IMG/VR virus record: IMGVR_UViG_3300005259_000049
Location: 1-24,047 of that record
Source of the DNA: a virus
Lineage: Duplodnaviria; Caudoviricetes
Direction: 5' to 3' (one strand)
Length of the DNA stretch: 24,047 nucleotides
The notes below the pieces were generated by a model. That model saw only the letters and a list, made by a program, of their open reading frames with translations, searched no databases and was not told where the DNA came from. This document shows positions 4,761-23,056 of this stretch, one piece after another; within the stretch, counting starts at the first letter, position 1, and each line of letters starts with the position of its first letter. A program made the position numbers and the translations under genes.

Positions 4761-4962
4761 ACTGATTATCAAAAACTATACTTATGTCATTTTTAAAATC
4801 TTGCGACCTGCATTTTAGTTCCCAGAGTACTATTACGTACTACTATGTATATATTTTTACTTATTAAGTTTTATTCTTTCCTAGTGCTTTATAGTAGTAT
4901 TGGGTATAATATCTTCGTGTTTTAGTATCATTTGTTGGCATAGGAGGATGACAGCAAGTAAA

Positions 4963-5379
4963 ATGCCAGATAAGTTATGCAAAGAAAAGCGAAGCTGGAA
5001 TATGAGTCAAATTCGCTCAAAGAACACCAAGCCAGAGTTATTGGTCAGGTCTCTTTTGCATAAAGCTGGATATAGATTTCGTATTCATGTTAAGGATCTA
5101 GCAGGAAAACCAGATATTGTTTTGCCTAAGTATAATAAAGCAATTTTTGTAAATGGTTGCTTTTGGCATAGACATGAAGGATGTAAAGATGCATCTATTC
5201 CAAAGACAAACATTGACTATTGGGAAGCAAAGATACAGAAGAATATTTCAAGAGATCGTAGTAATGCTTTACTACTTACTAATTTAGGTTGGGATGTTGT
5301 AATAATTTGGGAATGCGAGCTTAATAGGCCTGATGACCAAATCTTATCTTTTTTGATAAATAGGATATTTCCATCATGA
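4963..5379 (+). CDS. vsr: Very short patch repair endonuclease
   Basis: RSWNMSQIRSKNTKPE, GKPDIV, FVNGCFWHRH, IIWECE. The start could alternatively be 4948. Confidence 0.95.
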   Translation: MPDKLCKEKRSWNMSQIRSKNTKPELLVRSLLHKAGYRFRIHVKDLAGKPDIVLPKYNKAIFVNGCFWHRHEGCKDASIPKTNIDYWEAKIQKNISRDRSNALLLTNLGWDVVIIWECELNRPDDQILSFLINRIFPS

Positions 5380-6482
5380 GTAATGATATTTCTATATTTT
5401 CATTTTTTTCAGGTTCAGGATTTTTAGATCTTGGCTTTGAAAAAGCAGATTTTAAAATTTGTTTTGTAAATGAATTAAAATCATCATTTCTTGATGCTTA
5501 TAAGTACTCAAGAAAAGTATTAGGAATACATCCACCAAAGTATGGATATTCAGGAGAAAGCGTAGAGAATTATCTATCTGGGGAAGATGCCATTTATCTT
5601 AAATCTTGCATGCTAAAAGAGAAAGAGGATCATAATATCGTAGGATTCATAGGCGGACCGCCTTGCCCAGATTTTTCGGTTGGAGGTAAAAATCGCGGAC
5701 GACATGGTGATAATGGTAAACTCTCTGGTATTTATATCGACTTAATATGTAATAATCATCCTGACTTTTTTGTTTTCGAGAATGTTAAAGGTCTATGGAG
5801 GACTAAGCGGCATCGAGAATTTTTTGAAGAATTGAAGGCGCGCTTGTCGGATCATGGATATATTATGTCAGAAAAGCTAGTTAATTCAATTGAATATGGA
5901 GTTCCCCAAGACCGCGATAGAATAATATTATTTGGTGTGCAAAAATCATCTCTTCAGCAAGGTTCGCCTATTGAAAGCTTTAATTGGAACTTAAAGAAGA
6001 GATATAATAAAGAGGATGTTTTTAACCTTCCTTGGCCTAATAGCAATCCTCTTAATCAGAATATTAAATTATCTTCTTCTCTTCCCAAAGAACTTACTGT
6101 AGACTACTGGTTCAAAAAAAACGATGTAGAAAATCATCCAAATTCAAAAGACCAATTTAAGCCGCGAGCTGGTCTAGAAAAATTTTTACGGATAGAAGAA
6201 GGCGACGATTCAAAAAAATCATTTAAGAGGCTTCATAGGAATCGCTATTCTCCAACTGTATGTTATGGTAACAATGAAGTACATCTACACCCAACCTTGC
6301 CCAGGAGGATAAGTGTTGCTGAAGCTCTTGCTTTACAAAGCCTTCCTTCAAATTTTGAACTACCATCGAGTATGACACTCTCAGATAAATTTAAAACTGT
6401 TGGGAATGGAGTCCCCTTTTTGTTAGCAAAAGGTCTCGCAGAAACAATTAAATATTTTATTGAAAAAAGCATGGAGGTATAA
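5376..6482 (+). CDS. DNA (cytosine-5) methyltransferase of a type II R-M system
   Basis: Motif I FSGSGFLDLG, IV GGPPCPDFS, VI ENVKG, VIII QDRDRI, X GNGVP. Confidence 0.95.
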   Translation: MSNDISIFSFFSGSGFLDLGFEKADFKICFVNELKSSFLDAYKYSRKVLGIHPPKYGYSGESVENYLSGEDAIYLKSCMLKEKEDHNIVGFIGGPPCPDFSVGGKNRGRHGDNGKLSGIYIDLICNNHPDFFVFENVKGLWRTKRHREFFEELKARLSDHGYIMSEKLVNSIEYGVPQDRDRIILFGVQKSSLQQGSPIESFNWNLKKRYNKEDVFNLPWPNSNPLNQNIKLSSSLPKELTVDYWFKKNDVENHPNSKDQFKPRAGLEKFLRIEEGDDSKKSFKRLHRNRYSPTVCYGNNEVHLHPTLPRRISVAEALALQSLPSNFELPSSMTLSDKFKTVGNGVPFLLAKGLAETIKYFIEKSMEV

Positions 6483-6483
6483 G

Positions 6484-7563
6484 ATGACTAGAGTTACAGC
6501 AGCAAATATTGCTTATTGGATTTCACAGCTTGATAAAAATACGATTTATAACTATATAAATCAAAATAATCGTGGTAGTATAAAAATCATTAGAGTTGAT
6601 CTTCCAGAAGGCCCAATAATTATCCGGCGTTGGAATTCATCAAAACAAATGACATTTAGTGATGTTCATGATGAGACAATTTCATCAAATATGTTATGGA
6701 GAGTTGCTAATGCTATCCAAGATGATGTACCAATTAACATGGATAGAATTCTAGGTGCAAGCTATAATACCAGATCAGTATTAGAAAGCTTATTAGCATA
6801 TACCCCGCTATTTCATATTACTCACCCCGGCAGGATAGAGATAATCAATTCTTCGTCAGAAATAAAGCAAGGCCACAAACATATCATATTTCTTCCCGAG
6901 AACCCTCACATTCAAGGCCAATTGAGCACTATTGAAACTGGCAAAGTAATATCAGAAATTCCTTCTCAACAAGCAATTTATGAATCTTTAGTCGTCCCTG
7001 ATGACTTTGGATCGCATAAAGAAACCTTAAACATAGAACAATCAAGAAGACATGCTCAGATCCAAATTGCGCTAGTATTAATTGGGATGCAGCTTGGATA
7101 TAGAACATGGATTGCACAAAATGATAGAGGGATAGAATATAACCATAAAAAAATTAGTGAGTTAGAATGTGTTGTTCCCTCATTAAGTCGCGAAAACCTA
7201 CTTTTAGGTTTTCAAGATGCAGCTAAAGCAGCCCAACTCATAGATTGTATATGGTTTAAAAATGGAAGACTAATGCCCGCAGTAATGGAGGTTGAATATA
7301 CAACAGGTATCACAAGTGGATTAACACGAATGAAAAATTTTCAAGATAAATTACCACCTTTCCCCACTAGATATGTTATTGTCGCTCCTGACGAAGATAG
7401 AGATAAGTTTATTCGTGAAGCCTCTAAAAGCCAATTTCTTGAACTAAAGAGTAGTTTCTTTGCCTTTTCTGCAGTTGAAGAATTATACTCACTTTGCCAA
7501 AGAAGGAAAATTTCGGGAGTAACAGAAAGCTTTCTTGATTGCTTTATGGAAAAAATTGCTTAA
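6484..7563 (+). CDS. Putative type II restriction endonuclease, PD-(D/E)xK-like C-terminal domain
   Basis: Directly follows the MTase, RBS GGAGG; HAQIQ..L, IDCIW..., MEVEYTTGITSGLTRM catalytic-like motifs. Confidence 0.75.
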   Translation: MTRVTAANIAYWISQLDKNTIYNYINQNNRGSIKIIRVDLPEGPIIIRRWNSSKQMTFSDVHDETISSNMLWRVANAIQDDVPINMDRILGASYNTRSVLESLLAYTPLFHITHPGRIEIINSSSEIKQGHKHIIFLPENPHIQGQLSTIETGKVISEIPSQQAIYESLVVPDDFGSHKETLNIEQSRRHAQIQIALVLIGMQLGYRTWIAQNDRGIEYNHKKISELECVVPSLSRENLLLGFQDAAKAAQLIDCIWFKNGRLMPAVMEVEYTTGITSGLTRMKNFQDKLPPFPTRYVIVAPDEDRDKFIREASKSQFLELKSSFFAFSAVEELYSLCQRRKISGVTESFLDCFMEKIA

Positions 7564-11796: not shown

Positions 11797-12270
11797 TCAA
11801 CTTCCAAAGGAAGCGGCGATCTTTCCATGCTCCACAAAGCTGTAGGAGCCGTACTTCCCGATGATGAGGTGATCCAGAATCGGGATTCCCATGACTTCCC
11901 CGGCATCCTTTAGCCGCTTCGTGATCTCGATATCTTCCATGGAAGGCTCCACCGAGCCTGATGGATGGTTATGAGCAATAATGAGCGCCACCGCATTGTC
12001 CTTGATTGCCGCCCGGTATACTTCCCTCGGATGAATCAGGGTCTTGTTCACCAGGCCTTTCGTCACCGTATGCGTCCTGATCGGCTTATGGGCTCCATCG
12101 AGGCTTATCACGATGAAATGCTCCTGGGTTCGCTTGGCGAATGTTGCCAGGAGCTTCACGACATCCTTAGGTTGCTTAACCTGAACCTCCAAGACGATCC
12201 TTGAGATTGCCCCGCCGTAGTTGCCCTTCTCGATCATCGAAAGGACTTCTGACTTCTCCGACTCGTTCAA
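11797..12270 (-). CDS. radC: RadC-like JAB-domain protein
   Basis: QEHF, IHPREV, AHNHPSG..EPS..D, LDHLIIG; probable TTG start at 12270 overlapping the upstream TGA. Confidence 0.92.
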   Translation of the reverse strand: MNESEKSEVLSMIEKGNYGGAISRIVLEVQVKQPKDVVKLLATFAKRTQEHFIVISLDGAHKPIRTHTVTKGLVNKTLIHPREVYRAAIKDNAVALIIAHNHPSGSVEPSMEDIEITKRLKDAGEVMGIPILDHLIIGKYGSYSFVEHGKIAASFGS

Positions 12271-12434
12271 TTCTCCACCTCCCATACATCTAACGCTCTT
12301 TTGAGCGCCTTTAGCTTCAAAGCAGACCCAAGAAATTCTCTTGTACCTCCTGGCGTAACGCCATAGACCTGTTGCCCTTCGACCAGCATCATGAAGATGC
12401 CAAGGCCGAACCTGTAGTACATGCCGACTACCAT
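12267..12434 (-). CDS. Small hypothetical protein (55 aa, absent from ORF track)
   Basis: ATG at 12434 after AGGAGG; MVVGMYYRFGLGIFMMLVEGQQ...DVWEVEN; stop overlaps the radC start (TTGA). Confidence 0.6.
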   Translation of the reverse strand: MVVGMYYRFGLGIFMMLVEGQQVYGVTPGGTREFLGSALKLKALKRALDVWEVEN

Positions 12435-12639
12435 TGGTGAGACCTCCTATATTCTTTCGAGCTGCATGATTTGCTTATTGAATCAATAGAGTATTTATTA
12501 CTATTTTGCCAATCTATTTATTTTGCAATATATACATTTACAAGTGTAACATTTAGTAATATTCTAAAAATTTGGATATGGCTAAGGATCTTTGAATTTT
12601 ACAGATTCAATTAAATATTATCAAAAACAGGAGATGATT

Positions 12640-13377
12640 ATGAAGAAACTATTAATTGCTTTCACAATTATCTTAGCTTGTATGATTTTATTCGATTGTT
12701 CAATGCCAAGCGACGAAGATCTGGATTCTTTTCAACTTGATTATTCCGATTATGACCTAATTTTGAATTCATCGGCCTTAGCATATATAACCGATAACAA
12801 TGCTATTAATTGGTATACCAACAATAATGCTATCATAAGAATTTCAGCAACAAATGACCCAAAAATTGTAAAAATTACAGGTATGACACTTGGTACAGCA
12901 ACTTTAAGCTGCAATTACAAGTACAATAACGAAACTTACGAACGGACACGTACAATCCATGTAGTTAATCCTAACTATCCAACTACACCAATATTCGGTA
13001 ATTATGACGCATGGACCTATGTAAATTCACCAGGCTGGATAAAAGTAGAAAATGCAAGATTTACAATTTCTAGTACATCATTAGTGATGGCAGGGACGAC
13101 ACTCTTTCCGAATTCAAACAATATCTACAAAGATCAAAAGCTTTTTGCGCTAAATGGACAAATTTGGATGACATACAAATTGAATAATACTTTACAGAAA
13201 ACTTATCTTTTTGACTATTATTTTGAAGACAACACTCGATATGGAACAAAAGTACTTTGGATAAAAAATGATTCCACAAGTGACTATACAATATATTGGA
13301 AACCTTCAGCTGAAACCGCAGCATCTTCCTTAATAATTCCATACATTTTAGTAGGGAATACTCCTACGAATCCTTAG
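12640..13377 (+). CDS. Putative lipoprotein with Ig-like (Big_2-like) domain
   Basis: MKKLLIAFTIILACMILFDC signal; WYTNN..I....ITGMTLGTATLS Ig-like pattern; AT-rich. Confidence 0.6.
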   Translation: MKKLLIAFTIILACMILFDCSMPSDEDLDSFQLDYSDYDLILNSSALAYITDNNAINWYTNNNAIIRISATNDPKIVKITGMTLGTATLSCNYKYNNETYERTRTIHVVNPNYPTTPIFGNYDAWTYVNSPGWIKVENARFTISSTSLVMAGTTLFPNSNNIYKDQKLFALNGQIWMTYKLNNTLQKTYLFDYYFEDNTRYGTKVLWIKNDSTSDYTIYWKPSAETAASSLIIPYILVGNTPTNP

Positions 13378-13428
13378 CAGATATTTTTAAAGTCAAAGCT
13401 ATAAATGTTTTATTTAGGGGAGCATGAT

Positions 13429-14766
13429 ATGAAAAATAACCGCTCTTCGTTATCGCTTTTTATTTTTACCTTACTTTTGTTCGCTACTCTATTTGAGTTT
13501 TCTTGTTCCTTTTCACCAAAAATAGTTGACAATCCTATCATATCGCCTTCGCCTAACGCTGTCGGAGATTATGGCCCTATAGAAATTACAATATCATGCC
13601 CAACAGAGAATGCACAAATTAGGTACACAATCAATGGGAGCTATCCAAATAAAGATAGTGGTATTATCTATACAGGTCCATTTACAATAACGAAACTTAG
13701 TTCAATATCTGCTATCGCATTTACAAATGATGCAGTATCAAATGTGGTAACAAATTTGTACACTATCTGTAAAAAAATAAACCCACCAAATTTTAATATC
13801 CAAGAAGGTACTTATACCGGTTCACAAAGCATAGAGTTATCTAATGATGCTGGTGCCTTGGTTTCAATAAAATACACTCTTGATGGCACCACTCCCTCAC
13901 ATAAGCATGGCTTGACCTATAATGGTCCAATTAGTATTGAAAACACAACAACTATAAAAGCAATAGCACTATTTAACTACGGCCTACTTAACCCTCTTCC
14001 TAATGATGAAGGATATGGCGGAAATTCTGACCTAAGTAGCGCAAAATATACTGTAGAGAATAGCCTAAATTCACCAGAATTTAGCCTTGAATCAGGGGTG
14101 TACAATAACCAACAAACAGTATCGATAACATGTACCGATCCTGGGGTTACTATCAGGTATACAATCGATGGCTCTGATCCAACCACTACGGCTGGCATCG
14201 TTTACTCAAATCCAATTGCTATTACCTACTCTCATCCATTAAAAGCGATAGCATATATAGGTTCTAAAGCTTCTCAAATTAGTTGTACTGCTTATTGGAT
14301 TACTGGATCTTCAGGAGGACTAATATTTTATGGTAAAAGTTCACCTACTGACGGTTGGCAATTTATGGAAGCACATTTGTATGAAGGTACAGAGAATCCT
14401 CCCTGGGGAACAACAGCAATCCTTATCGGAACAGAAAGCGGGATAGGTACAGGTAAAAATAATACAGATAAAATTTCCTCTTATTTTAATGGGATAAGTA
14501 CAGCGGCTTCGTTATGCAAAGCTGCTAACGCATTTGGCTATGATGATTGGTTTTTACCATCAATCGATGAGTTGAGAGCATTTTTTATAAACGTTTGCGA
14601 ATATGACGAAGAAGATAAATTCAAAGGAGCTTTTTGGAGCTCTACTGAATATGGTGAGACGCATGCTTACATACTTTTACCAGCTGAGCCAAAAGAAGGA
14701 CCAAACTGGGTTACTTTTAAATCTTTGAGTACAGATTATAAAATACTACTTGCAAGAGAATACTGA
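13429..14766 (+). CDS. Putative lipoprotein: 3 Fn3-associated/chitobiase-like repeats plus DUF1566-like C-terminal domain
   Basis: Lipobox-like FSC; three I(R/K)YT(I/L)(N/D)G(S/T)xP repeats; GYDDWFLPSIDEL and FWSSTE motifs. Confidence 0.75.
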   Translation: MKNNRSSLSLFIFTLLLFATLFEFSCSFSPKIVDNPIISPSPNAVGDYGPIEITISCPTENAQIRYTINGSYPNKDSGIIYTGPFTITKLSSISAIAFTNDAVSNVVTNLYTICKKINPPNFNIQEGTYTGSQSIELSNDAGALVSIKYTLDGTTPSHKHGLTYNGPISIENTTTIKAIALFNYGLLNPLPNDEGYGGNSDLSSAKYTVENSLNSPEFSLESGVYNNQQTVSITCTDPGVTIRYTIDGSDPTTTAGIVYSNPIAITYSHPLKAIAYIGSKASQISCTAYWITGSSGGLIFYGKSSPTDGWQFMEAHLYEGTENPPWGTTAILIGTESGIGTGKNNTDKISSYFNGISTAASLCKAANAFGYDDWFLPSIDELRAFFINVCEYDEEDKFKGAFWSSTEYGETHAYILLPAEPKEGPNWVTFKSLSTDYKILLAREY

Positions 14767-14807
14767 TTATTCTCTGTTTGGTTTTAGTTTAATTAAATCA
14801 GTATTTA

Positions 14808-14828
14808 TATTAGGCTTGTCGCCTAATA
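14808..14828 (+). terminator. Hairpin after the lipoprotein operon
   Basis: TATTAGGC-TTGTC-GCCTAATA perfect 8-bp stem; weak U-tract. Confidence 0.35.
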
Positions 14829-14958
14829 CTCTTAAGCAATTGGGGCTAACGCCGGATCACAATAATGTGTTCCGGCGCTATAGATCCTATAAGCGAAACA
14901 GAGCTATTTTAGCTTACAATTAGCATTCTGCAAGTATAAATGTTAAAAAAAGGGATTA

Positions 14959-15005
14959 TGCTACAGCCCCGGAATTGAACCGGGCGACAACCCTATGCTG
15001 TAGCA
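14959..15005 (-). ncRNA. Minimal tRNA-like element (acceptor-like stem plus T arm, no anticodon arm)
   Basis: TGCTACAGC-ATAGGGTTGTCG-CCCGG-TTCAATT-CCGGG-GCTGTAGCA: 9-bp stem and a canonical 5-bp/7-nt T arm. Confidence 0.6.
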
Positions 15006-15636
15006 CGGACTACTCCCATTTGTATGATAGGCTAGCCCATTGAAGCTGTTTGTGGCCTAACGACTGGCCCATTCGACCCACTATGGCTCTTTGGTACTCC
15101 CCTCTTCGTATGGTGTCCCAGGCTAGAAGCATCCTGCATCCTCTAGGCATGGACTGACCCTACAATTCGCCTTCGCGCAAGGTGAATCGACGCTTAAGCG
15201 CCTGACCCATTCCGACTACATAGCGCCACAAAGTGGCTGCCCCGTCGGCTCAGATCGCCCACTACCCCTAGCAACCGCTCAGATGCTTCCAGCCTGTTCT
15301 ACCATACAAAGCTCTCAACGCTCATCGCGCATATCAAGGACGCTAACCTATTGCGGGTATAAAGAGGCTTACCCTATTGCATAGTGACAACACTACAACA
15401 GTATCCCTATAGAGCAAGATCCATGCTTTTGATGCGAGACTACGGGCTTGCCGATGGCGCGCCAGTCTACGCGAAAGCATGAGCCATGCCAATTTTATGG
15501 GAATTGTAGCTATGCAAACCGAAGGCCTATGAATACATAGTGCTTTCTATATATCGATTACCCGTAAAATTGCCCTATTGAGTGAAAGAAAAAATCGAGA
15601 CTAGGACACTTCCAGCGTCCCGGTGGGCAAAGCCCA

Positions 15637-16020
15637 CTACGCCCTATAATTCAAGACTTTCTGAGCTTCCTTGTGCAGCGTGTTTTTTGCCGTTGCCGAT
15701 GCTTTCAATACGTCGTCAAGCGTTGAGTGTTCCGTGATATGCCTATAGCAGGTCAAGAAAGGTCCTTTCACTATCTTTCCAGCTTTCCTGTCGAGTACAT
15801 AGCTTTTCACGACGTTGAAGGCTTCTATATCACTTCCCGCGGATTTTATGAGATTCACGGCTTTCCTAGTGCTCGCTTTCCTGCTTCCATACCGTGCCAC
15901 GCTTTGCGCTACCGCTTCCGGCTTCCCTGCCTGTATGCTTGCCATGAGAGCGGGAAGCATTGCTTTCATAGTATCCGCGACGATTGAAGAAATAAGTTTT
16001 TCCATTGCGATATTGTCCAT
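15637..16020 (-). CDS. Orphan basic protein (127 aa)
   Basis: RBS AAGGGG; Lys/Arg/Ala-rich; no recognisable motif. Confidence 0.65.
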   Translation of the reverse strand: MDNIAMEKLISSIVADTMKAMLPALMASIQAGKPEAVAQSVARYGSRKASTRKAVNLIKSAGSDIEAFNVVKSYVLDRKAGKIVKGPFLTCYRHITEHSTLDDVLKASATAKNTLHKEAQKVLNYRA

Positions 16021-16289
16021 ATATATGCCCCTTGTGTTGATTTTTAGGGCAATTATATAGGCAATCGAGATATTCCCTTCCCTTGTGGTGGCGGGTCAAG
16101 CTTTCAAGGTTCGGCAAGCATGGCGCGGGCTTTCTATAAAGCCCCTCAATTGAACGCATTTCACTGCGCGGGAAAGATAGGACACTTCCCTTTCTACAGT
16201 CGCCCTTGCGTACTAGACTGCAAGACTATCCGCTACTTGTCACGGCTTTACGTGACGGCTTGTAAAAGAACGGTATCGAAAATACTTTG

Positions 16290-16590
16290 TATCGTTTTTC
16301 GATAGTCTTATCATCTAGGACATTCTCGATTATGTCAATATATTTTTTCGAATTTATCGATAATTTATTTTATCGTTTTTCGATTAGAATAAATAAGAAT
16401 GGTATAAAGCATGCTATGCAATGAAATGGCATATAAGTATTGAAAATATTCTCATGTGAGTATTTAGGCTGAAAAATCAAGATACAAGCCCCCCAGGGGG
16501 GACATGGGGATTCGCGCGTGGAAGAATAACACCTGGAATTATCTACAATATAAAATAGTGTTGACTTATTATCGAAAAACGATATATTAT
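16290..16590. promoter_or_regulatory. Divergent sigma70-like promoters with three TATCG-N5-CGAT(A/T) operators
   Basis: Operators at 16290-16304, 16371-16385 and 16570-16584; rightward TTGACT (16561) N18 TATTAT (16585); leftward TTGACA (16338-16333). Confidence 0.65.
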
Positions 16591-16609: not shown

Positions 16610-16864
16610 ATGGCTAGTAGAACATCTACAGGAAAAGTATATGTTGGGATAAAAGTACCTGATAAGAATTACGAATTTCTCCAAGAGATTATAGATAAAG
16701 AAGGCGGCAGTATGGCTGGCTATATCAACGAAGCAATACAGAAATGGCTTCTAGATAAAGGCTTCGATGCAGAAATCGCCATTGACCATAGAACAGGGAA
16801 GTGGGTCAGGATTAAGGAACCAGATACTAATAAGGAAGATAAGGAAGATAAGGGAGACAAGTAG
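16610..16864 (+). CDS. Ribbon-helix-helix (CopG/Arc-like) regulator
   Basis: VYVGIKVP strand, then helices DKNYEFLQEIIDKEG and SMAGYINEAIQKWL; RBS GGAGG. Confidence 0.65.
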   Translation: MASRTSTGKVYVGIKVPDKNYEFLQEIIDKEGGSMAGYINEAIQKWLLDKGFDAEIAIDHRTGKWVRIKEPDTNKEDKEDKGDK

Positions 16865-16867
16865 AGA

Positions 16868-17401
16868 ATGTCAGCAACACCGGAAGCCAGTAAAGGCAAT
16901 TTTGATGAACGTGCAGCAGCTTTCGTCGTTGAGATAACCGATCCAGATTCCCCTAACTTCGGTAATGCCTTAGGTTCAGCCGTATCTGCTATGGATGTCA
17001 CTTATGAGACTGCTCACAAGCAATCCTACAAGCTAATGCGTCAGGATCGTATCAGGAATGAGATAGAACGCATCCTTGAAGAGCGTGGAATGGGGAAGGA
17101 ACACAGGTCATCAGTCCTCATTGAGCTTATCACCCAGAAGATGACTAGAAAGACCGAACGTTACAATGCAGAAGGCGAACTGGTAGAAGTGGTTAAATCA
17201 GGACCAACCTTCTCGGATATTATAAAGGCCGTTGATTTACTTAACCGCATGGATGGCACCTACACCGATCAGAAGAAGGTTTCTGACCAAGAGCGTGATG
17301 TCCATCGCGCCCTCATTAAGGAAGTTATGAGAGAAGCAAGAGACCACGCCAGGGGAAAGAAAATTAAAGAAATAGATGACATTAACACCGAAATCAAATA
17401 A
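16868..17401 (+). CDS. terS: Terminase small subunit
   Basis: FGNALGSAVSA...TAHKQSYKLMRQDRIRNEI resembles the Terminase_2 HTH; C-terminal KAVDLLNRMDG. Confidence 0.65.
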   Translation: MSATPEASKGNFDERAAAFVVEITDPDSPNFGNALGSAVSAMDVTYETAHKQSYKLMRQDRIRNEIERILEERGMGKEHRSSVLIELITQKMTRKTERYNAEGELVEVVKSGPTFSDIIKAVDLLNRMDGTYTDQKKVSDQERDVHRALIKEVMREARDHARGKKIKEIDDINTEIK

Positions 17402-17456: not shown

Positions 17457-18587
17457 TTATTGCACAATCTTGCGAATTTTATGGTTATAGGTATCTGCAA
17501 CAAAAATATCACCTGATGAATTAATGGCAATGCCACCTGGCCAATAAAATGAAGCTGTGTTGCGGGGGCCGTCATCAGAGCCTTGAGTCCCAGTACCTGC
17601 AATTGTAGATACAATCCCATCAGGTGTTATTTTTCTTATCTTATTATTGTACATATCTACAATATAAACATTACCGAAAATATCAATTTTTATCCCTAGG
17701 GGATTATAAAAGGACGCAGTAGCACTGGGACCGTCTATTGAACCCTGAGTTCCTGAACCGGCAAGAGTCGTTACAATACCCAATGAAGATATTTTGCGGA
17801 TCTTCTGATTGCCTGTATCTGTCACATATAAAGTATTATTTACATCAATTGCTATCCCAAATGGTGAGTAGAATGTTGCTGCTGTGCCAGTCCCGTCTGT
17901 TGAGCCAGCAACCCCAGAACCTGCAAAAGTTGTCACTACTTTTTCAGGTGTGATCTTCCGAATACAATTATTGCTTGAGTCTGCTACAAAGATATTGCCT
18001 ATGCTATCAACAGCAATACCCAAAGGATTATGGAAGGATGCGGATGCTCCAGTTCCATCAGTAAATCCTGCGCTCCCTGAACCAGCAATGGTGGTAACAA
18101 TTCCTGTTGGAGTAATTTTTCGAATTTTATTAGTATGAGAATCAACAACATACAGATTCTTTGAGGTATCAATAGCAATACCTAATGGATATCCAAAAGA
18201 AGCTGCTAAGCCTGTGCCATCGACTGAATTAAAACTCCCAGAACCGGCTATTGTCGTTACAATTCCAGTGGACGAAATCTTTCTGATTCGTGAATTACCA
18301 TTATCAACAACATATAAATCGCCAGTAGAATCTACAACAATGTCGGCAGGATAACTGAATGAGGCTGCAGAACCTGTACCATTTGCATATCCTGATGTCC
18401 CTGAGCCAGCAAATGTGTAGACTCCCGAAGGTGCAATTGTTGTGCTCGTGGTCGTAGTGCTCGTGGTCGTAGTGCTCGTGGTCGTAGTGCTCGTGGTAGT
18501 TGTTGCATCGGGACCAGGAATATTTTGGCAACTTGTAATTAACAACGCTGATAGAATAATGATGACAATTCTACTAAGCTTTTTCAT
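17457..18587 (-). CDS. NHL-repeat beta-propeller lipoprotein (moron)
   Basis: Lipobox LITSC, Thr-rich linker, six ASF..P.GIA(V/I)D..GN.YV.D..N.KIRKI repeats. Confidence 0.88.
   Translation of the reverse strand: MKKLSRIVIIILSALLITSCQNIPGPDATTTTSTTTTSTTTTSTTTTSTTIAPSGVYTFAGSGTSGYANGTGSAASFSYPADIVVDSTGDLYVVDNGNSRIRKISSTGIVTTIAGSGSFNSVDGTGLAASFGYPLGIAIDTSKNLYVVDSHTNKIRKITPTGIVTTIAGSGSAGFTDGTGASASFHNPLGIAVDSIGNIFVADSSNNCIRKITPEKVVTTFAGSGVAGSTDGTGTAATFYSPFGIAIDVNNTLYVTDTGNQKIRKISSLGIVTTLAGSGTQGSIDGPSATASFYNPLGIKIDIFGNVYIVDMYNNKIRKITPDGIVSTIAGTGTQGSDDGPRNTASFYWPGGIAINSSGDIFVADTYNHKIRKIVQ
18442..18497 (+). repeat. 15-bp tandem repeat GTGCTCGTGGTCGTA x3.7 encoding the TTTST linker
   Basis: Three perfect copies plus a partial fourth. 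Confidence 0.9.
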
Positions 18588-19215
18588 ATTTAAATCCTTT
18601 TACTACAATATCTAGTATTATTACATATTATTGAAAATACACAAGGTAATATTTATCCTCGATAGAAGGTTTTCTTTTGAAAGATATGAAGGAACCTGAC
18701 AGCGTAGAGTTAAAATCTTTTTAGGCCCACTAAGCTATAAAAAGCATAGTATCTAGCAATAAAAACTAATATCGTTATTAAGAACCTCCGTCATCAATCC
18801 TTTCGTGATATCTCCTGACATCTCCTTCCTTTTATTGACATATTGCTTTAATAAGTGTATTGACACACTTTTTATTTTACTCTCTTAATATAAGTGTTAT
18901 TACACCTTTGTATTTAATAGCACTACAAAAGAGATAAGATGATCACTTTCCTCCGTCTCCAGAGGGCTTCGCTAGCGCTCAGCACGACTACGGAAAGTCA
19001 GGCTTAAAATACTCATAGATAAGCAATATAGACAGAAACATCTCACCACCAAGGGGAAGGTGTCTAGCTTGAGAAAGACTACCTCCTGGTCTTTCTGAAT
19101 GGACTCCAAAAGTATGTTGACCAATAGAGTAAAACGAATTATATAGAAACATACACTAGTGGTGTATATACACTACAATAGAGTTTTATCTAGCTATTCC
19201 TCCTTTGGGAGACGA

Positions 19216-20778
19216 ATGAACTTTGTAAAAACTCACGCTGAAAAGCGGAAGTATAAAGAGTACCTTGAAAAGACAGGGAAGGAGGAGTTAGCGGCCGAGC
19301 TGTACCTTCAATGGAAGGCGCTCACCGATTTGTACTTCTTAGGTGCCGTCATTCTTGGGATGGACAAGATCGAAGATGGGGGGCGTCCCCGCCTAGATCC
19401 AATCCTTCATGGATGGCTTTCGGGCATCATGGAAAGGAATGATGACACCCTTATCTTGATCCCGCGTGGACACATGAAGTCAGCCTGGACCAAGGTAAAG
19501 ATCGTCCAGCTCATCTTGCAGAATCCGAATATACGCATCGGGCTATTCTCACGCACTTCAAGCCTCGTTGAGTCGCAATTAGGCGAAATCAAGCAACTCT
19601 TTTGTACTCCAGAGCTGATGCGTCTATTCCCCGACCGTATTCCTGAGCCCGGAAAGCGTTTCGCCAACTGGAAGCGCAGCATCGCGAACGAGCTCACGGT
19701 TTTCAGATCCCCTGAGTGGGGCCGCGTCCCGCAGGAAAACCAGATAGAAGCCTGGGGCGTTGGCGCCACGATCGTCGGCCGGCACTACGACGTGATCATT
19801 ATGGACGACATCATCAACGAGCAGTCGTGCTCCAGCCCTGAGCAGATCAGGAAGGTTCGTGACTGGTATTCCTATATCCAGTCCATCAAGGACCCGGAAG
19901 GTTTCGAGCTGATGATAGGCACCCGCTACCATTTCTCGGACATCTACGGAACGGTCATCAAGGAAGGCTGGTACAAGGATCGCGTCTACATTCGCCGGGC
20001 GGTGGAAGATGGGAAGCCCATCTATCGCTTCTTCACGCTCTCGATGCTCGCGAAGATCAAGCAACGCCAGGGAGCCTACGAATACTCATGCCAGTACGAT
20101 AACAACCCGGTACCGAGGGATGACCAGATATTTCCTCCCCCGCAGCCAACGTATGCAGTCCTTGCTCCGGGCGCTTACAGCTACTACATGACGGTGGACC
20201 CTGCCGCGACGGCAGAAATCTACTCCGATGACACTGGCGTGATCATCGGCGCGGTCAACTCGGAAGGATTCTTGTATGTCGTCGAGGCGAAGAAGATCCA
20301 CTTGAAGCCCGACAAGATGGTGGATGAGCTAATTAGGCTCATTGTCCAGTACAAGCCTAAGGTCGTCGGCATTGAGTTGGGGCTTCAGGCAGGGATTCAA
20401 TACCTCCTCGACATCAAGAAGCGAGAGTACGAAGAGATCACCGGGAAACCTTTAAGGTTCAAGCTGAAAGAGATCGACGCCCCGCGATCGATGTCTAAGG
20501 AAGACAAGATCAACCGGGTACTAGGCGGTGTCGTCCGGGCTGGCAGGGTGTTCATCCATGAATCCTTAACCGACTTACTCCTCCAAATGGAATTCTTCCC
20601 TAAAGGGGAGCATGACGATCTCGTGGATGCGCTCACGATGATGGTCCAGATCATATCGGAATTCATCTCAGGGAATTCCGGGGATGCGCTTAGGCAGGCT
20701 GCGTATAAGCCTGATTCATTATTTGGGATGTTCAAGAAACGGCTTCGTTCGTCATGGGAGGCGAAATTTGTTGCGTAG
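19216..20778 (+). CDS. terL: Terminase large subunit
   Basis: Walker A-like PRGHMKS, Walker B VIIMDD, GTRYH, nuclease motifs TVDPA and HDDLVDA; ATG at 19216 after GGGAG. Confidence 0.93.
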   Translation: MNFVKTHAEKRKYKEYLEKTGKEELAAELYLQWKALTDLYFLGAVILGMDKIEDGGRPRLDPILHGWLSGIMERNDDTLILIPRGHMKSAWTKVKIVQLILQNPNIRIGLFSRTSSLVESQLGEIKQLFCTPELMRLFPDRIPEPGKRFANWKRSIANELTVFRSPEWGRVPQENQIEAWGVGATIVGRHYDVIIMDDIINEQSCSSPEQIRKVRDWYSYIQSIKDPEGFELMIGTRYHFSDIYGTVIKEGWYKDRVYIRRAVEDGKPIYRFFTLSMLAKIKQRQGAYEYSCQYDNNPVPRDDQIFPPPQPTYAVLAPGAYSYYMTVDPAATAEIYSDDTGVIIGAVNSEGFLYVVEAKKIHLKPDKMVDELIRLIVQYKPKVVGIELGLQAGIQYLLDIKKREYEEITGKPLRFKLKEIDAPRSMSKEDKINRVLGGVVRAGRVFIHESLTDLLLQMEFFPKGEHDDLVDALTMMVQIISEFISGNSGDALRQAAYKPDSLFGMFKKRLRSSWEAKFVA

Positions 20779-21214: not shown

Positions 21215-23056
21215 TTGAAAGATGCCGTCGATGCCGCCTATGGAAGCCCCGAGCATGAGGAGCGCCGTAAGAAGTGGCAGCGCTTCATTAAGGAATTCAC
21301 CGGGAAGTGGTGGAATGAAGCCGAACTCACCCCTGAGGATTCGCGCGTATTCTGCAACTTCATCTTCTCGACCATCCAGACCACCGCCCCGCTTCTCACC
21401 GACAATAGGCCAATTTGGACGGTCCTTCCCCGACGCTATTTCTTTCAGCGTGTCGCTGACCTTTATAACGATGCTCTCAAGTTCGTTTGGGAAATGACCA
21501 GGATGGATGAAAAGCTCCTCGATGCCGTGTATGACTCTCTCCTCCACGGCACGGCGCTCTTCAAAGTCTACTTCGATCCTGATGCCTCGAATGGGCTTGG
21601 CGATATCGCTATCGATGTCATTGATCCCTTCGATTTCGTCATTGCTCCCGGCTATGACGACCCCTGGAATGCTTCATGGTGCGGGATGCGAAAGCTAATG
21701 CCCGTCGAGGATGTGAAGCGCCTCTATCCGAGCGCAGAAAAGCAGCTCACCCCTGAGGAATATGCGACCGAGCATGACCAGAAGCAGGATCGCCTCGCTG
21801 AACACGATCTCATCGGTGACTACATCCTCGTCTATGAAATCTGGCTTAGGGACAATACGACCGAGGAGGCGATAGAAGAGCAGTATGCCGGGAAGGACGC
21901 TGACGGCCATGAGGTCATGGATTCTAAGAAGGTCAGGAAAGCGAAATACCCCAATGGCCGAATCCTCACCTTCACGGGCGGCAATGCAATCCTCCTCGAT
22001 GACCGCCCTTCACCTTTCAAACATGGAAGGCCGCCTTACGTCGCCCTCCATGACTACAAGGTTCCTCACCAGTTCTGGGGCATCGGGGAACCCGATCAGA
22101 TTGAAAACCTAAACCGGGAATTCAATGTCCGCTTGCAGCAGATCGTGGAGCATGCCCGGAAATATACGAAGCGGAACATCGTCGTCGATGAGTCGGCTGG
22201 CATCACGACCGAGCAGGTGAAGGAAGCGATTCAGAAGGGCGATCAGGTTCTACTGTCGAAGGCGGGCTTCGCAAAAGATGTCGTCGCCACCCTCGATGTT
22301 CCCGACCTTCCCCCGGTGATCACGCAGATAATGTCCACACTTCCTCAGCTCATTGAGGAGGTTTCGGGCGTCACCGATGTCACGAAAGGCGTCACAGGCA
22401 AGCGCCAGCGCCAGACTGCCACCGAGATGTCGATGCTCCTTGAGTCCTCTTATACCCGCACCAGGCAGCGAGTACGAAACCTGGAATCATCAATTAAGCG
22501 GCTCGCCACTCTCATCGTGGAACTCATGATGCAGTTCTACACTGAGCCGCGGAACTTCTATATCCGCAAGGATGACGAGGTTCAGTACGGCGTTATCTCG
22601 AATCAAAGCAGTTTCCTAAAGGAAGCGATGAAGCCGCAAGAGAATGCCGGCCTCATGGATGATGACCTTTCGGAAGAGGAGAAAGAGGACATCGAGGACT
22701 ATGAAAAGCTCATCGATGCCATAGCGGAGACGGATGAAGTCTATTTCGACTTCAATATCGAGATTCAGACCAATTCGACGCTGCCTTTAGACCGCCAGTC
22801 CTTAGCAAACCTCATGCTCCGGCTTGCCGAAATGAAGATCGTCGATGCCCAGGCTGTCCTTGAAACGTTGCGCGTTCCCGGAACCGATAAGATCCTCGCC
22901 CGCCTCGCTGAGCAACGGCAGAAGGAAGAGGAGATGGCGAAGGCTGAAAATCAAGGCGGCGGCAATCCGCAGGAAGCTCAAGACAAGGCGATGGTGCAGA
23001 GCCTTTTAAATGACCTAAGCGATCAGCAAGTGAAGGAGGAAGCGGGTGCCTATTAG
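21215..23056 (+). CDS. Portal protein (P22-like / podovirus-type)
   Basis: 613 aa downstream of terL; IDPFDFVIAP, FWGIG, IEEVSGV..V..G, TATE...L motifs. The start may be CTG at 21200. Confidence 0.85.
   Translation: MKDAVDAAYGSPEHEERRKKWQRFIKEFTGKWWNEAELTPEDSRVFCNFIFSTIQTTAPLLTDNRPIWTVLPRRYFFQRVADLYNDALKFVWEMTRMDEKLLDAVYDSLLHGTALFKVYFDPDASNGLGDIAIDVIDPFDFVIAPGYDDPWNASWCGMRKLMPVEDVKRLYPSAEKQLTPEEYATEHDQKQDRLAEHDLIGDYILVYEIWLRDNTTEEAIEEQYAGKDADGHEVMDSKKVRKAKYPNGRILTFTGGNAILLDDRPSPFKHGRPPYVALHDYKVPHQFWGIGEPDQIENLNREFNVRLQQIVEHARKYTKRNIVVDESAGITTEQVKEAIQKGDQVLLSKAGFAKDVVATLDVPDLPPVITQIMSTLPQLIEEVSGVTDVTKGVTGKRQRQTATEMSMLLESSYTRTRQRVRNLESSIKRLATLIVELMMQFYTEPRNFYIRKDDEVQYGVISNQSSFLKEAMKPQENAGLMDDDLSEEEKEDIEDYEKLIDAIAETDEVYFDFNIEIQTNSTLPLDRQSLANLMLRLAEMKIVDAQAVLETLRVPGTDKILARLAEQRQKEEEMAKAENQGGGNPQEAQDKAMVQSLLNDLSDQQVKEEAGAY

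What the first reader, a model, noticed from the sequence alone, without database searches (positions are those of the whole stretch)
14945..15005. Minimal tRNA-elbow mimic at the 3' end of the RNA
Seen: a 9-bp acceptor-like stem stacked on a canonical T arm (CCCGG-UUCAAUU-CCGGG). A 12-nt linker containing GG (AUAGGGUUGUCG) replaces the D and anticodon arms. There is no encoded CCA, and UAAUCCC-U7 follows. Known: D-loop GG to T-loop contacts form the elbow recognised by RNase P, RNase Z and tRNA-modifying enzymes, and tmRNA and YrlA use anticodon-less mimics. Inference: a processing signal that matures the large RNA, a 3' stabiliser, or a decoy for tRNA-targeting defences.
Basis: partly seen in the sequence, partly recalled or inferred. 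Interest (0 to 1): 0.75.

Follow-up and report, generated by a model that had tools for sequence, protein, structure and literature searches.

The report
Anticodon-less mini-tRNA ending a phage RNA
A 47-base stretch of a likely spirochaete-infecting phage, kept by most related phages, is predicted to fold like the top half of a tRNA and likely tells the host's tRNA-trimming enzymes where to cut a predicted large structured RNA away from a slot of swappable genes, some of them defence-like.

Summary
On the minus strand, 15005-14959 forms an acceptor-like stem stacked on a canonical T arm, joined by a 12-nt GG linker, with no anticodon arm and no CCA. It is not chance (0 of 300 shuffles). Of 14 distinct complete 3' ends, 11 keep it: 91% identity against 51% at neighbouring four-fold codon sites, tRNA-like T-loop variation, mostly pair-preserving changes. 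Three ends lack it (at least two losses), and the U7 tail is private to this window, so it is neither a terminator nor essential. It closes a conserved, unannotated, roughly 1.3-kb structured leader (no Rfam match) that holds an orphan 127-aa ORF. Conservation stops right after it, at a hypervariable cargo slot (0.3-3.5 kb, some defence-like genes) in front of a conserved radC operon. Best reading (0.55): an RNase P/RNase Z cutting signal like t-elements or mascRNA, with predicted cuts at U15005/G15004 and after A14959. It fails the tests for tRNA, tmRNA, YrlA and att site. No expression or cleavage data were obtainable. New variant of a known kind; similar mini-tRNAs recur in unrelated phages.

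The parts
14959..15005 (-). Anticodon-less mini-tRNA (47 nt): acceptor-like stem, 12-nt linker, T arm
   Evidence: present in 11 of 14 distinct complete 3' ends
14997..15005 (-). 5' strand of the acceptor-like stem; preferred register (inferred): U15005 = N-1, G15004 = +1 of an 8-bp acceptor
   Evidence: U invariant in 11 of 11, purine next in 11 of 11
14985..14996 (-). 12-nt linker, 3 nt + GG (14993-14992) + 7 nt; predicted stand-in for the D loop
   Evidence: AUAGG invariant, length invariant; a real tmRNA shows 4 nt + GG + 7 nt
14968..14984 (-). T arm: 5-bp stem, 7-nt loop UUCRAKU closed by G-C
   Evidence: 100% of cells paired, four of five pairs vary without breaking
14959..14967 (-). 3' strand of the acceptor-like stem; A14959 is the predicted discriminator, last conserved base
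   Evidence: pairwise identity falls from 0.82-1.0 to about 0.3 right after it; no CCA in 11 of 11
14945..14958 (-). UAAUCCC-U7 tail, not conserved; belongs to this window's cargo slot
15006..15040 (-). Hairpin abutting the mini-tRNA; predicted 3' end of the large RNA after cutting
   Evidence: variable sequence, kept pairing; also present in L007 and L009, which lack the mini-tRNA
15054..15547 (-). 3' structured domain of the large RNA, nested long-range helices, sites of optional two-hairpin inserts in relatives
   Evidence: (z -4.54 for 14920-15640, 20 shuffles)
15549..15577 (-). 3' arm of a 29-nt inverted repeat that encloses the ORF
15601..15640 (-). Optional two-hairpin insert right after the ORF stop; look-alikes sit at other sites in relatives
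15637..16020 (-). Orphan 127-aa helical protein gene inside the long helix
   Evidence: no Pfam or PHROG; 19 homologs; 2 clusters at 50%; no fold match
16045..16073 (-). 5' arm of the 29-nt inverted repeat
16075..16290 (-). Conserved 5' structured domain
16310..16338 (-). Sigma-70-like promoter (TTGACA, 17 nt, GATGAT), predicted start of the transcript; palindromic operator-like words at 16290, 16371, 16570
   Evidence: (TTGAC invariant in 9 of 9)
12449..14958 (.). Hypervariable cargo slot; here two lipoprotein-like genes on the plus strand (12592-13377, 13405-14766)
11797..12448 (-). Conserved right border: ribosome-binding site, 55-aa ORF (12434-12267), radC (12285-11797), start of an early operon

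Best explanation
The element is a conserved tRNA top-half mimic that likely acts as a cutting signal for host RNase P and RNase Z, separating a predicted 1.3-kb structured phage RNA from the variable genes that follow it. Shown: the fold potential, its conservation, its position at the exact border between the conserved leader and the cargo slot, and its absence from some relatives. Inferred: (1) one transcript starts near 16305 and reads through the leader; (2) the linker GG docks on the T loop to make an elbow; (3) RNase P cuts between U15005 and G15004, leaving the large RNA ending in the 15040-15006 hairpin; (4) RNase Z then cuts after A14959, giving the downstream cargo/radC message a new 5' end and releasing a 46-nt RNA with an 8-bp acceptor and 5-bp T stem; (5) where the element is lost, the hairpin alone would set the 3' end by exonuclease trimming.
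For: Kept in 11 of 14 distinct complete 3' ends, all reachable through protein-based searches blind to the element. Identity 0.91 against 0.51 at four-fold sites of the neighbouring ORF, higher in 45 of 45 pairs of 10 loci. 98.7% of cells paired; 9 of 11 variant pair types keep pairing, 7 G-U types against 0 A-C, which points to the minus strand as RNA. The T loop varies only at the purine and the following variable position, as in tRNA (the tRNA consensus is recalled). What is conserved is elbow and stem geometry, not aminoacylation identity: no G3-U70, first pair G-C, G-U or A-U, no CCA. Conservation starts at an invariant U and ends at an A (10 of 11), the expected N-1 and discriminator of an 8-bp acceptor; bacterial RNase P prefers U at N-1 (PMC4919922, passages) and needs the acceptor-T stack with a T loop but not a D loop (PMC4919913, section 4.3). 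RNase P/Z cutting at 3' tRNA-like elements is the established route for MALAT1 and MEN-beta, and RNase P also processes OLE RNA and phage-induced RNAs (PMC4919922, passages). An unrelated phage locus carries three similar mini-tRNAs within 2.9 kb, two of them read in full between small genes (L074).
Against: No transcript, end-mapping or cleavage data. The element is absent from 3 of 14 ends in both main clades, so it is not essential. Covariation proper is weak: both two-sided changes come from one sequence (L011) and 44 of 500 column shuffles reach the observed values. The stack is 13-14 bp, not the usual 12, N-1 can pair with the discriminator, and there is no RCCA to pair with RNase P RNA, which normally helps cleavage. 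In wider context the predicted pairing is often outcompeted: acceptor probability under 0.35 in 5 of 11, T stem under 0.5 in 6 of 11; alone, the topology is the best fold in 7 of 11 and within 0.6-2.4 kcal/mol in 4. In this window the cargo genes face the other way, so a new 5' end would not serve them.
Confidence: 0.55

Rival explanations
1. The element stays attached and works uncut, as a compact 3' cap or as an elbow-shaped protein-binding domain of the large RNA (for example for stability or for a regulatory role of the leader on the radC operon).
For: The conserved ninth pair and the non-standard stack length could hinder cleavage; the stem abuts the upstream hairpin and could stack on it; no conserved promoter precedes the radC operon, only a ribosome-binding site.
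Against: A plain hairpin would cap the end without an invariant T loop and GG; such a hairpin is already there and persists in 2 of 3 ends without the element.
Confidence: 0.17
2. The released small RNA is the product that matters: a decoy that titrates an elbow-binding host protein (SmpB, a tRNA-directed defence enzyme, or a modifying enzyme).
For: A TLD-only RNA exists in mycobacteriophage DS6A and a similar molecule inhibits tmRNA, perhaps by titrating SmpB (PMC4131195, passages); linker spacing resembles a tmRNA D loop.
Against: No G3-U70 and no helix where tmRNA continues; single copy per genome; the defence tRNases in the passages read cut the anticodon loop, which this RNA lacks (PMC13434031). 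This rival still needs the same processing.
Confidence: 0.12
3. It is a tRNA remnant or att-like anchor: DNA that marks where cargo cassettes are exchanged, with no RNA function.
For: Conservation ends exactly at the acceptor 3' end and cargo differs between loci; loss of the element coincides with different cargo.
Against: No second copy or displaced half: one match per carrying genome, longest shared word with cargo 6-8 nt in 9 of 9 carriers whose element end was located; the integrase lies about 29 kb away in G001; changes keep base pairs through G-U on one strand; identity far above neutral sites.
Confidence: 0.08
4. It is an intrinsic terminator of the large RNA.
For: U7 lies 7 nt after the stem in this window.
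Against: Not called by the terminator scan; U run not adjacent to the stem; at most 5 U in the other 10 carriers; invariant T loop and linker are unexplained.
Confidence: 0.03

Closest known systems
mascRNA / menRNA of MALAT1 and MEN-beta (PMC4919922, passages)
   Same: tRNA-like element at the 3' end of a large RNA, no encoded role in decoding, predicted RNase P then RNase Z cutting
   Different: Bacterial phage rather than mammal; no D stem or anticodon remnant at all; optional among relatives; followed by a cargo slot; cutting untested
t-elements of plant mitochondria and Haloferax (PMC1920247, abstract start and one passage; PMC6546412, passages)
   Same: tRNA-like punctuation read by RNase P and RNase Z to set ends of neighbouring RNAs
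   Different: Here in a phage early leader; 8-9 bp acceptor and fixed 12-nt GG linker; ends not mapped
tRNA-like domain of tmRNA, TLD-only tmRNA of phage DS6A (PMC4131195, passages)
   Same: Acceptor stem, stemless GG loop, T arm, no anticodon arm
   Different: No G3-U70, no helix or coding part between GG loop and T arm, no CCA, no Rfam or ARAGORN tmRNA call
GOLLD RNA with embedded tRNA or pseudo-tRNA (PMC6582537, passages)
   Same: Large structured prophage RNA carrying a tRNA-like piece
   Different: No Rfam match for this RNA; no tRNA genes in three related complete records; contains an ORF; tRNA-like piece is terminal and anticodon-less
YrlA RNA (features recalled)
   Same: tRNA-mimicking module with GG and T loop, no anticodon
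   Different: No Ro60/TROVE gene in 4 of 4 records; no Rfam match

Membership tests
Canonical tRNA gene | Cloverleaf with D stem and anticodon arm | tested here: not met
   12-nt linker only; ARAGORN 0; Rfam 0; RF00005 0 of 3 related records
Canonical tRNA gene | 5-bp T stem and 7-nt T loop of tRNA consensus | tested here: met
   11 of 11 carriers; consensus itself recalled
RNase P/Z processing element (t-element, mascRNA type) | Acceptor stem stacked on T arm | tested here: met
   stack 13-14 bp rather than 12
RNase P/Z processing element (t-element, mascRNA type) | Lies at the border of a larger transcript unit | tested here: inconclusive
   Border shown by conservation; the transcript itself not observed
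RNase P/Z processing element (t-element, mascRNA type) | RNA ends coincide with the element; cut by RNase P and RNase Z | not testable with these tools
   needs RNA end mapping or in vitro cleavage
tmRNA / TLD-only tmRNA | G3-U70 alanine identity pair (recalled) | tested here: not met
   A-U (7-bp register) or U-A (8-bp register) at that pair in 11 of 11
tmRNA / TLD-only tmRNA | Stemless loop with GG after the acceptor strand | tested here: met
   3 nt + GG + 7 nt against 4 + GG + 7 in the tmRNA of G004
tmRNA / TLD-only tmRNA | Helix or tag-coding part between GG loop and T arm; model match | tested here: not met
YrlA | Ro60 gene alongside (recalled) | tested here: not met
   TROVE 0 of 4 records, 3 of them rated complete; host genome not searched
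YrlA | Ro60-binding module | not tested
   only the blanket Rfam scans bear on it
GOLLD / ROOL / other Rfam large RNAs (for the upstream RNA) | Match to the family covariance model | tested here: not met
   window and four homologs, E up to 1
Integration (att) site | Duplicated core at the far end of the insert; next to the integrase | tested here: not met
Intrinsic terminator | U tract directly after the hairpin, conserved | tested here: not met

The most novel reading that the evidence does not exclude
A phage counterpart of the MALAT1/mascRNA arrangement: a minimal tRNA mimic lets host RNase P and RNase Z release an undescribed 1.3-kb ornate, ORF-containing RNA, and the same cut serves as a universal adapter that gives any defence cassette dropped into the adjacent hotspot, and the anti-restriction-type operon behind it, a processed message uncoupled from the RNA.
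Probability: 0.25. Interest if true: 0.75.

Novelty: new variant of a known kind. Interest (0 to 1): 0.5.

Why it matters
tRNA-like cutting signals are established in organelles, archaea and mammals, but natural anticodon-less minimal versions in bacterial viruses are invisible to ARAGORN and Rfam and were not found described in eight literature searches (the library lacks most subscription papers), apart from the DS6A TLD-only tmRNA and GOLLD-embedded pseudo-tRNA. A 47-nt natural substrate with exact predicted cut sites and natural deletion variants is easy to test, and it points to an unannotated large structured RNA and to a prophage defence-cargo hotspot. The surprise is tempered because earlier notes of this scan report such mini-tRNAs in many phages.

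Tried and rejected
No RNA holder listed; laying three same-study runs gave no cover: no evidence on expression either way. BLAST against annotated phages and plasmids: no match. Exact 26-nt pattern in viral contigs: 0. Two core-RNA patterns brought only the same family plus unrelated coding matches. The loose mini-tRNA pattern gave 27 stretches, 7 of this family, the rest other elements or chance. Model R1 found no copy in the complete records of L007 and L012 nor in G004 (150 of 1119 candidates scored). The distant homolog P0140 brought no locus. The 127-aa protein has no family, Atlas or fold match (model pLDDT 75); the wide structural search was not run. Group I, group II, RNase P RNA and boxA look-alike motifs were considered by eye from recalled consensus and dropped because they vary among homologs. 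A tRNA-His-like charging identity was dropped: the pair is G-C in 8, G-U in 2, A-U in 1. A pairing of the linker GGG with the tail is possible only in this window. An ssDNA-hairpin reading of the region was considered because some inserts have GNA triloops, but no such hairpin with a 4-bp stem is in the window and wobble changes favour one strand. Promoter scan of the first 300 nt of 14 slots: 1 strict hit; too crude to decide whether cargo depends on read-through. No spirochaete host genome could be reached, so the parent tRNA was not identified.

Full report
Observation. The window is a phage fragment: terminase 19159-20778, portal 21215-23056, small terminase 16868-17401, radC 12285-11797. 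On the minus strand, 15005-14997 pairs with 14967-14959, a 12-nt linker (14996-14985) leads to a 5-bp T stem with a 7-nt loop (14984-14968), there is no CCA, and UAAUCCC-U7 follows. This is the predicted best fold (z -2.86, 3 of 200 shuffles). A scanner for a T arm with a stacked stem found one such element in the window and, in 300 dinucleotide shuffles of the window, none with 9 bp and two with 7 bp. ARAGORN and Rfam do not call it.

Relatives. Searches with the neighbouring 127-aa ORF, which are blind to the element, gave 10 viral, 16 metagenome and 1 genome locus. Four of the 26 viral and metagenome loci and the genome locus end before the 3' region. The rest, with the window, collapse to 15 distinct 3' sequences: 11 with the mini-tRNA, 3 without (L007, L009, L012), 1 cut off (L037). 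The host is likely a spirochaete: a member of the ORF's cluster is labelled uncultured Spirochaetota and a member of the cluster 92% identical to the terminase is labelled Spirochaetales. Against this, the one genome hit is titled Clostridiaceae, on an 8-kb contig that may be mis-binned.

Selection on the element. In the 11 carriers the linker length, AUAGG, the closing G-C and the T-loop bases U, U, C, A, U are invariant; the loop varies only at the purine and the next-but-one position. 98.7% of cells pair; 9 further pair types occur; two pairs change on both sides, both in L011, and 44 of 500 column shuffles reach these values, so covariation alone is not significant. Of 11 variant pair types 9 keep pairing (binomial p 1e-4 if a random change keeps a pair one time in four, 0.03 if one in two; both nulls are my assumptions and types are not independent events), with 7 G-U and 0 A-C types. 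Mean identity is 0.91 against 0.51 at four-fold sites of the ORF, higher in 45 of 45 pairs of 10 loci (L045 dropped, ORF start not matched). Identity drops to about 0.3 right after 14959. The U7 tail is private to the window. Against a robust fold: in 240-nt context the acceptor probability is under 0.35 in 5 of 11 and the T stem under 0.5 in 6 of 11; alone, the topology is best in 7 of 11 and within 2.4 kcal/mol in the other 4; tertiary contacts are not modelled. On a tree of 14 rows (L045 left out) the ends without the element fall in both strongly supported clades, L012 sister to the carrier L011, so it was lost at least twice or exchanged by recombination.

Upstream. Conservation runs from a promoter-like site at 16338-16310 through a 5' domain, a 29-nt inverted repeat that encloses the ORF, and a 3' domain to the mini-tRNA, about 1.3 kb. 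The stretch 14920-15640 folds better than shuffles (z -4.54, 20 shuffles). A consensus fold of 14 rows shows nested helices with two-sided changes, for example 4 of 11 pairs at 15209-15183, 4 of 5 at 15248-15212 and 3 of 5 at 15296-15119, without phylogenetic control. Optional two-hairpin inserts of about 30-44 nt occur at several sites. No Rfam family matches the window or four homologs. The ORF is an orphan. A hairpin at 15040-15006 abuts the mini-tRNA and is also present in L007 and L009. What the large RNA does is open; a regulatory leader of the early operon is one possibility, since only a ribosome-binding site is conserved before the 55-aa ORF and radC.

Downstream. Between the element and that ribosome-binding site lies a slot of 279-3536 nt in 11 loci with both ends, 25-40% G+C; among 14 slots only L041 and L047 share long sequence. 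Of 12 cargo proteins scanned, 5 hit PADLOC models (PDC-M04A and B, OLD/ATPase-Toprim, GmrSD-like, a weak type II restriction enzyme hit) and 6 hit Pfam; the window's own cargo is two lipoprotein-like genes on the opposite strand. No second copy or displaced half of the element was found, and the integrase is about 29 kb away in G001, so it is not the prophage att site.

Mechanism. What is conserved is what RNase P and RNase Z read: the acceptor-T stack and T loop (PMC4919913, passages and section 4.3). Aminoacylation identity is not conserved and there is no CCA. Conservation begins at an invariant U (15005) followed by a purine and ends at an A (14959, 10 of 11). Read as N-1, +1 and discriminator, this gives an 8-bp acceptor with a 5-bp T stem, the geometry recalled for bacterial tRNA-His and tRNA-Sec; bacterial RNase P prefers U at N-1, while the missing RCCA removes a helpful contact (PMC4919922, passages). 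I therefore infer cutting at U15005/G15004 and after A14959, which would leave the large RNA ending in its hairpin and give the downstream message a new 5' end, as RNase P and Z do at mascRNA and t-elements. None of these steps was observed. Confidence 0.55; uncut structural domain 0.17; released decoy 0.12 (precedent: DS6A TLD-only RNA, PMC4131195, passages); att anchor or remnant 0.08; terminator 0.03.

Comparison and novelty. It works like a t-element or mascRNA; it is not a tRNA, tmRNA, YrlA, GOLLD member, att site or terminator by the features tested. Eight literature searches gave no description of such an element closing a large phage RNA; the single paper holding the words anticodon-less, tRNA and phage uses them for a nuclease product (PMC13434031, passages). 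No supplements were consulted. Verdict: real, selected, unannotated; new variant of a known kind; interest 0.5, raised by the undescribed large RNA and the cargo hotspot, lowered by dispensability, recurrence of the class and lack of expression data.

Noticed in passing
window 16290-15006 (-): Undescribed ~1.3-kb structured leader with an orphan ORF looped out by a 29-nt helix; no Rfam match; deserves its own study.
   Followed up: partly
window 15640-15601 (-); L005, L006, L009, L010, L012, L041, L047, L049: Optional two-hairpin inserts of about 30-44 nt at seven or more sites of the large RNA, several flanked by short direct repeats; in three complete records the commonest type occurs only in this region. 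Tiny mobile units or modular domains.
   Followed up: partly
window 12449-14958; L003, L006, L007, L011, L045: Prophage cargo hotspot holding known and candidate defence genes and several unannotated genes that are candidates for new ones.
   Followed up: partly
window 17457-18587 (-); L036, L051: A second variable slot follows the small terminase gene (NHL-repeat lipoprotein here, other genes in relatives).
   Followed up: no
window 16290, 16371, 16570; ORF 16610-16864: Palindromic operator-like words over two divergent promoters, next to a small ORF that looks by eye like a ribbon-helix-helix regulator (no family hit supports this).
   Followed up: no
L074 (T stems at 1029, 1513, 2471, minus strand): Three copies of a different anticodon-less mini-tRNA in 2.9 kb of an unrelated high-GC phage, not called by ARAGORN.
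   Followed up: partly
L068, L073, L076, L077, L079, L083, L087-L091, L093, L094 at the pattern match: A family of tRNA-like elements with a T arm, short acceptor and extra hairpins, not called by ARAGORN.
   Followed up: no
L115 1500-1830: The tmRNA gene of G004 appears broken at its T loop, as after an island integration.
   Followed up: no
window 4900-7563 (+): Vsr-like nuclease, cytosine methylase and a likely restriction nuclease gene form another low-GC cassette in this phage.
   Followed up: no
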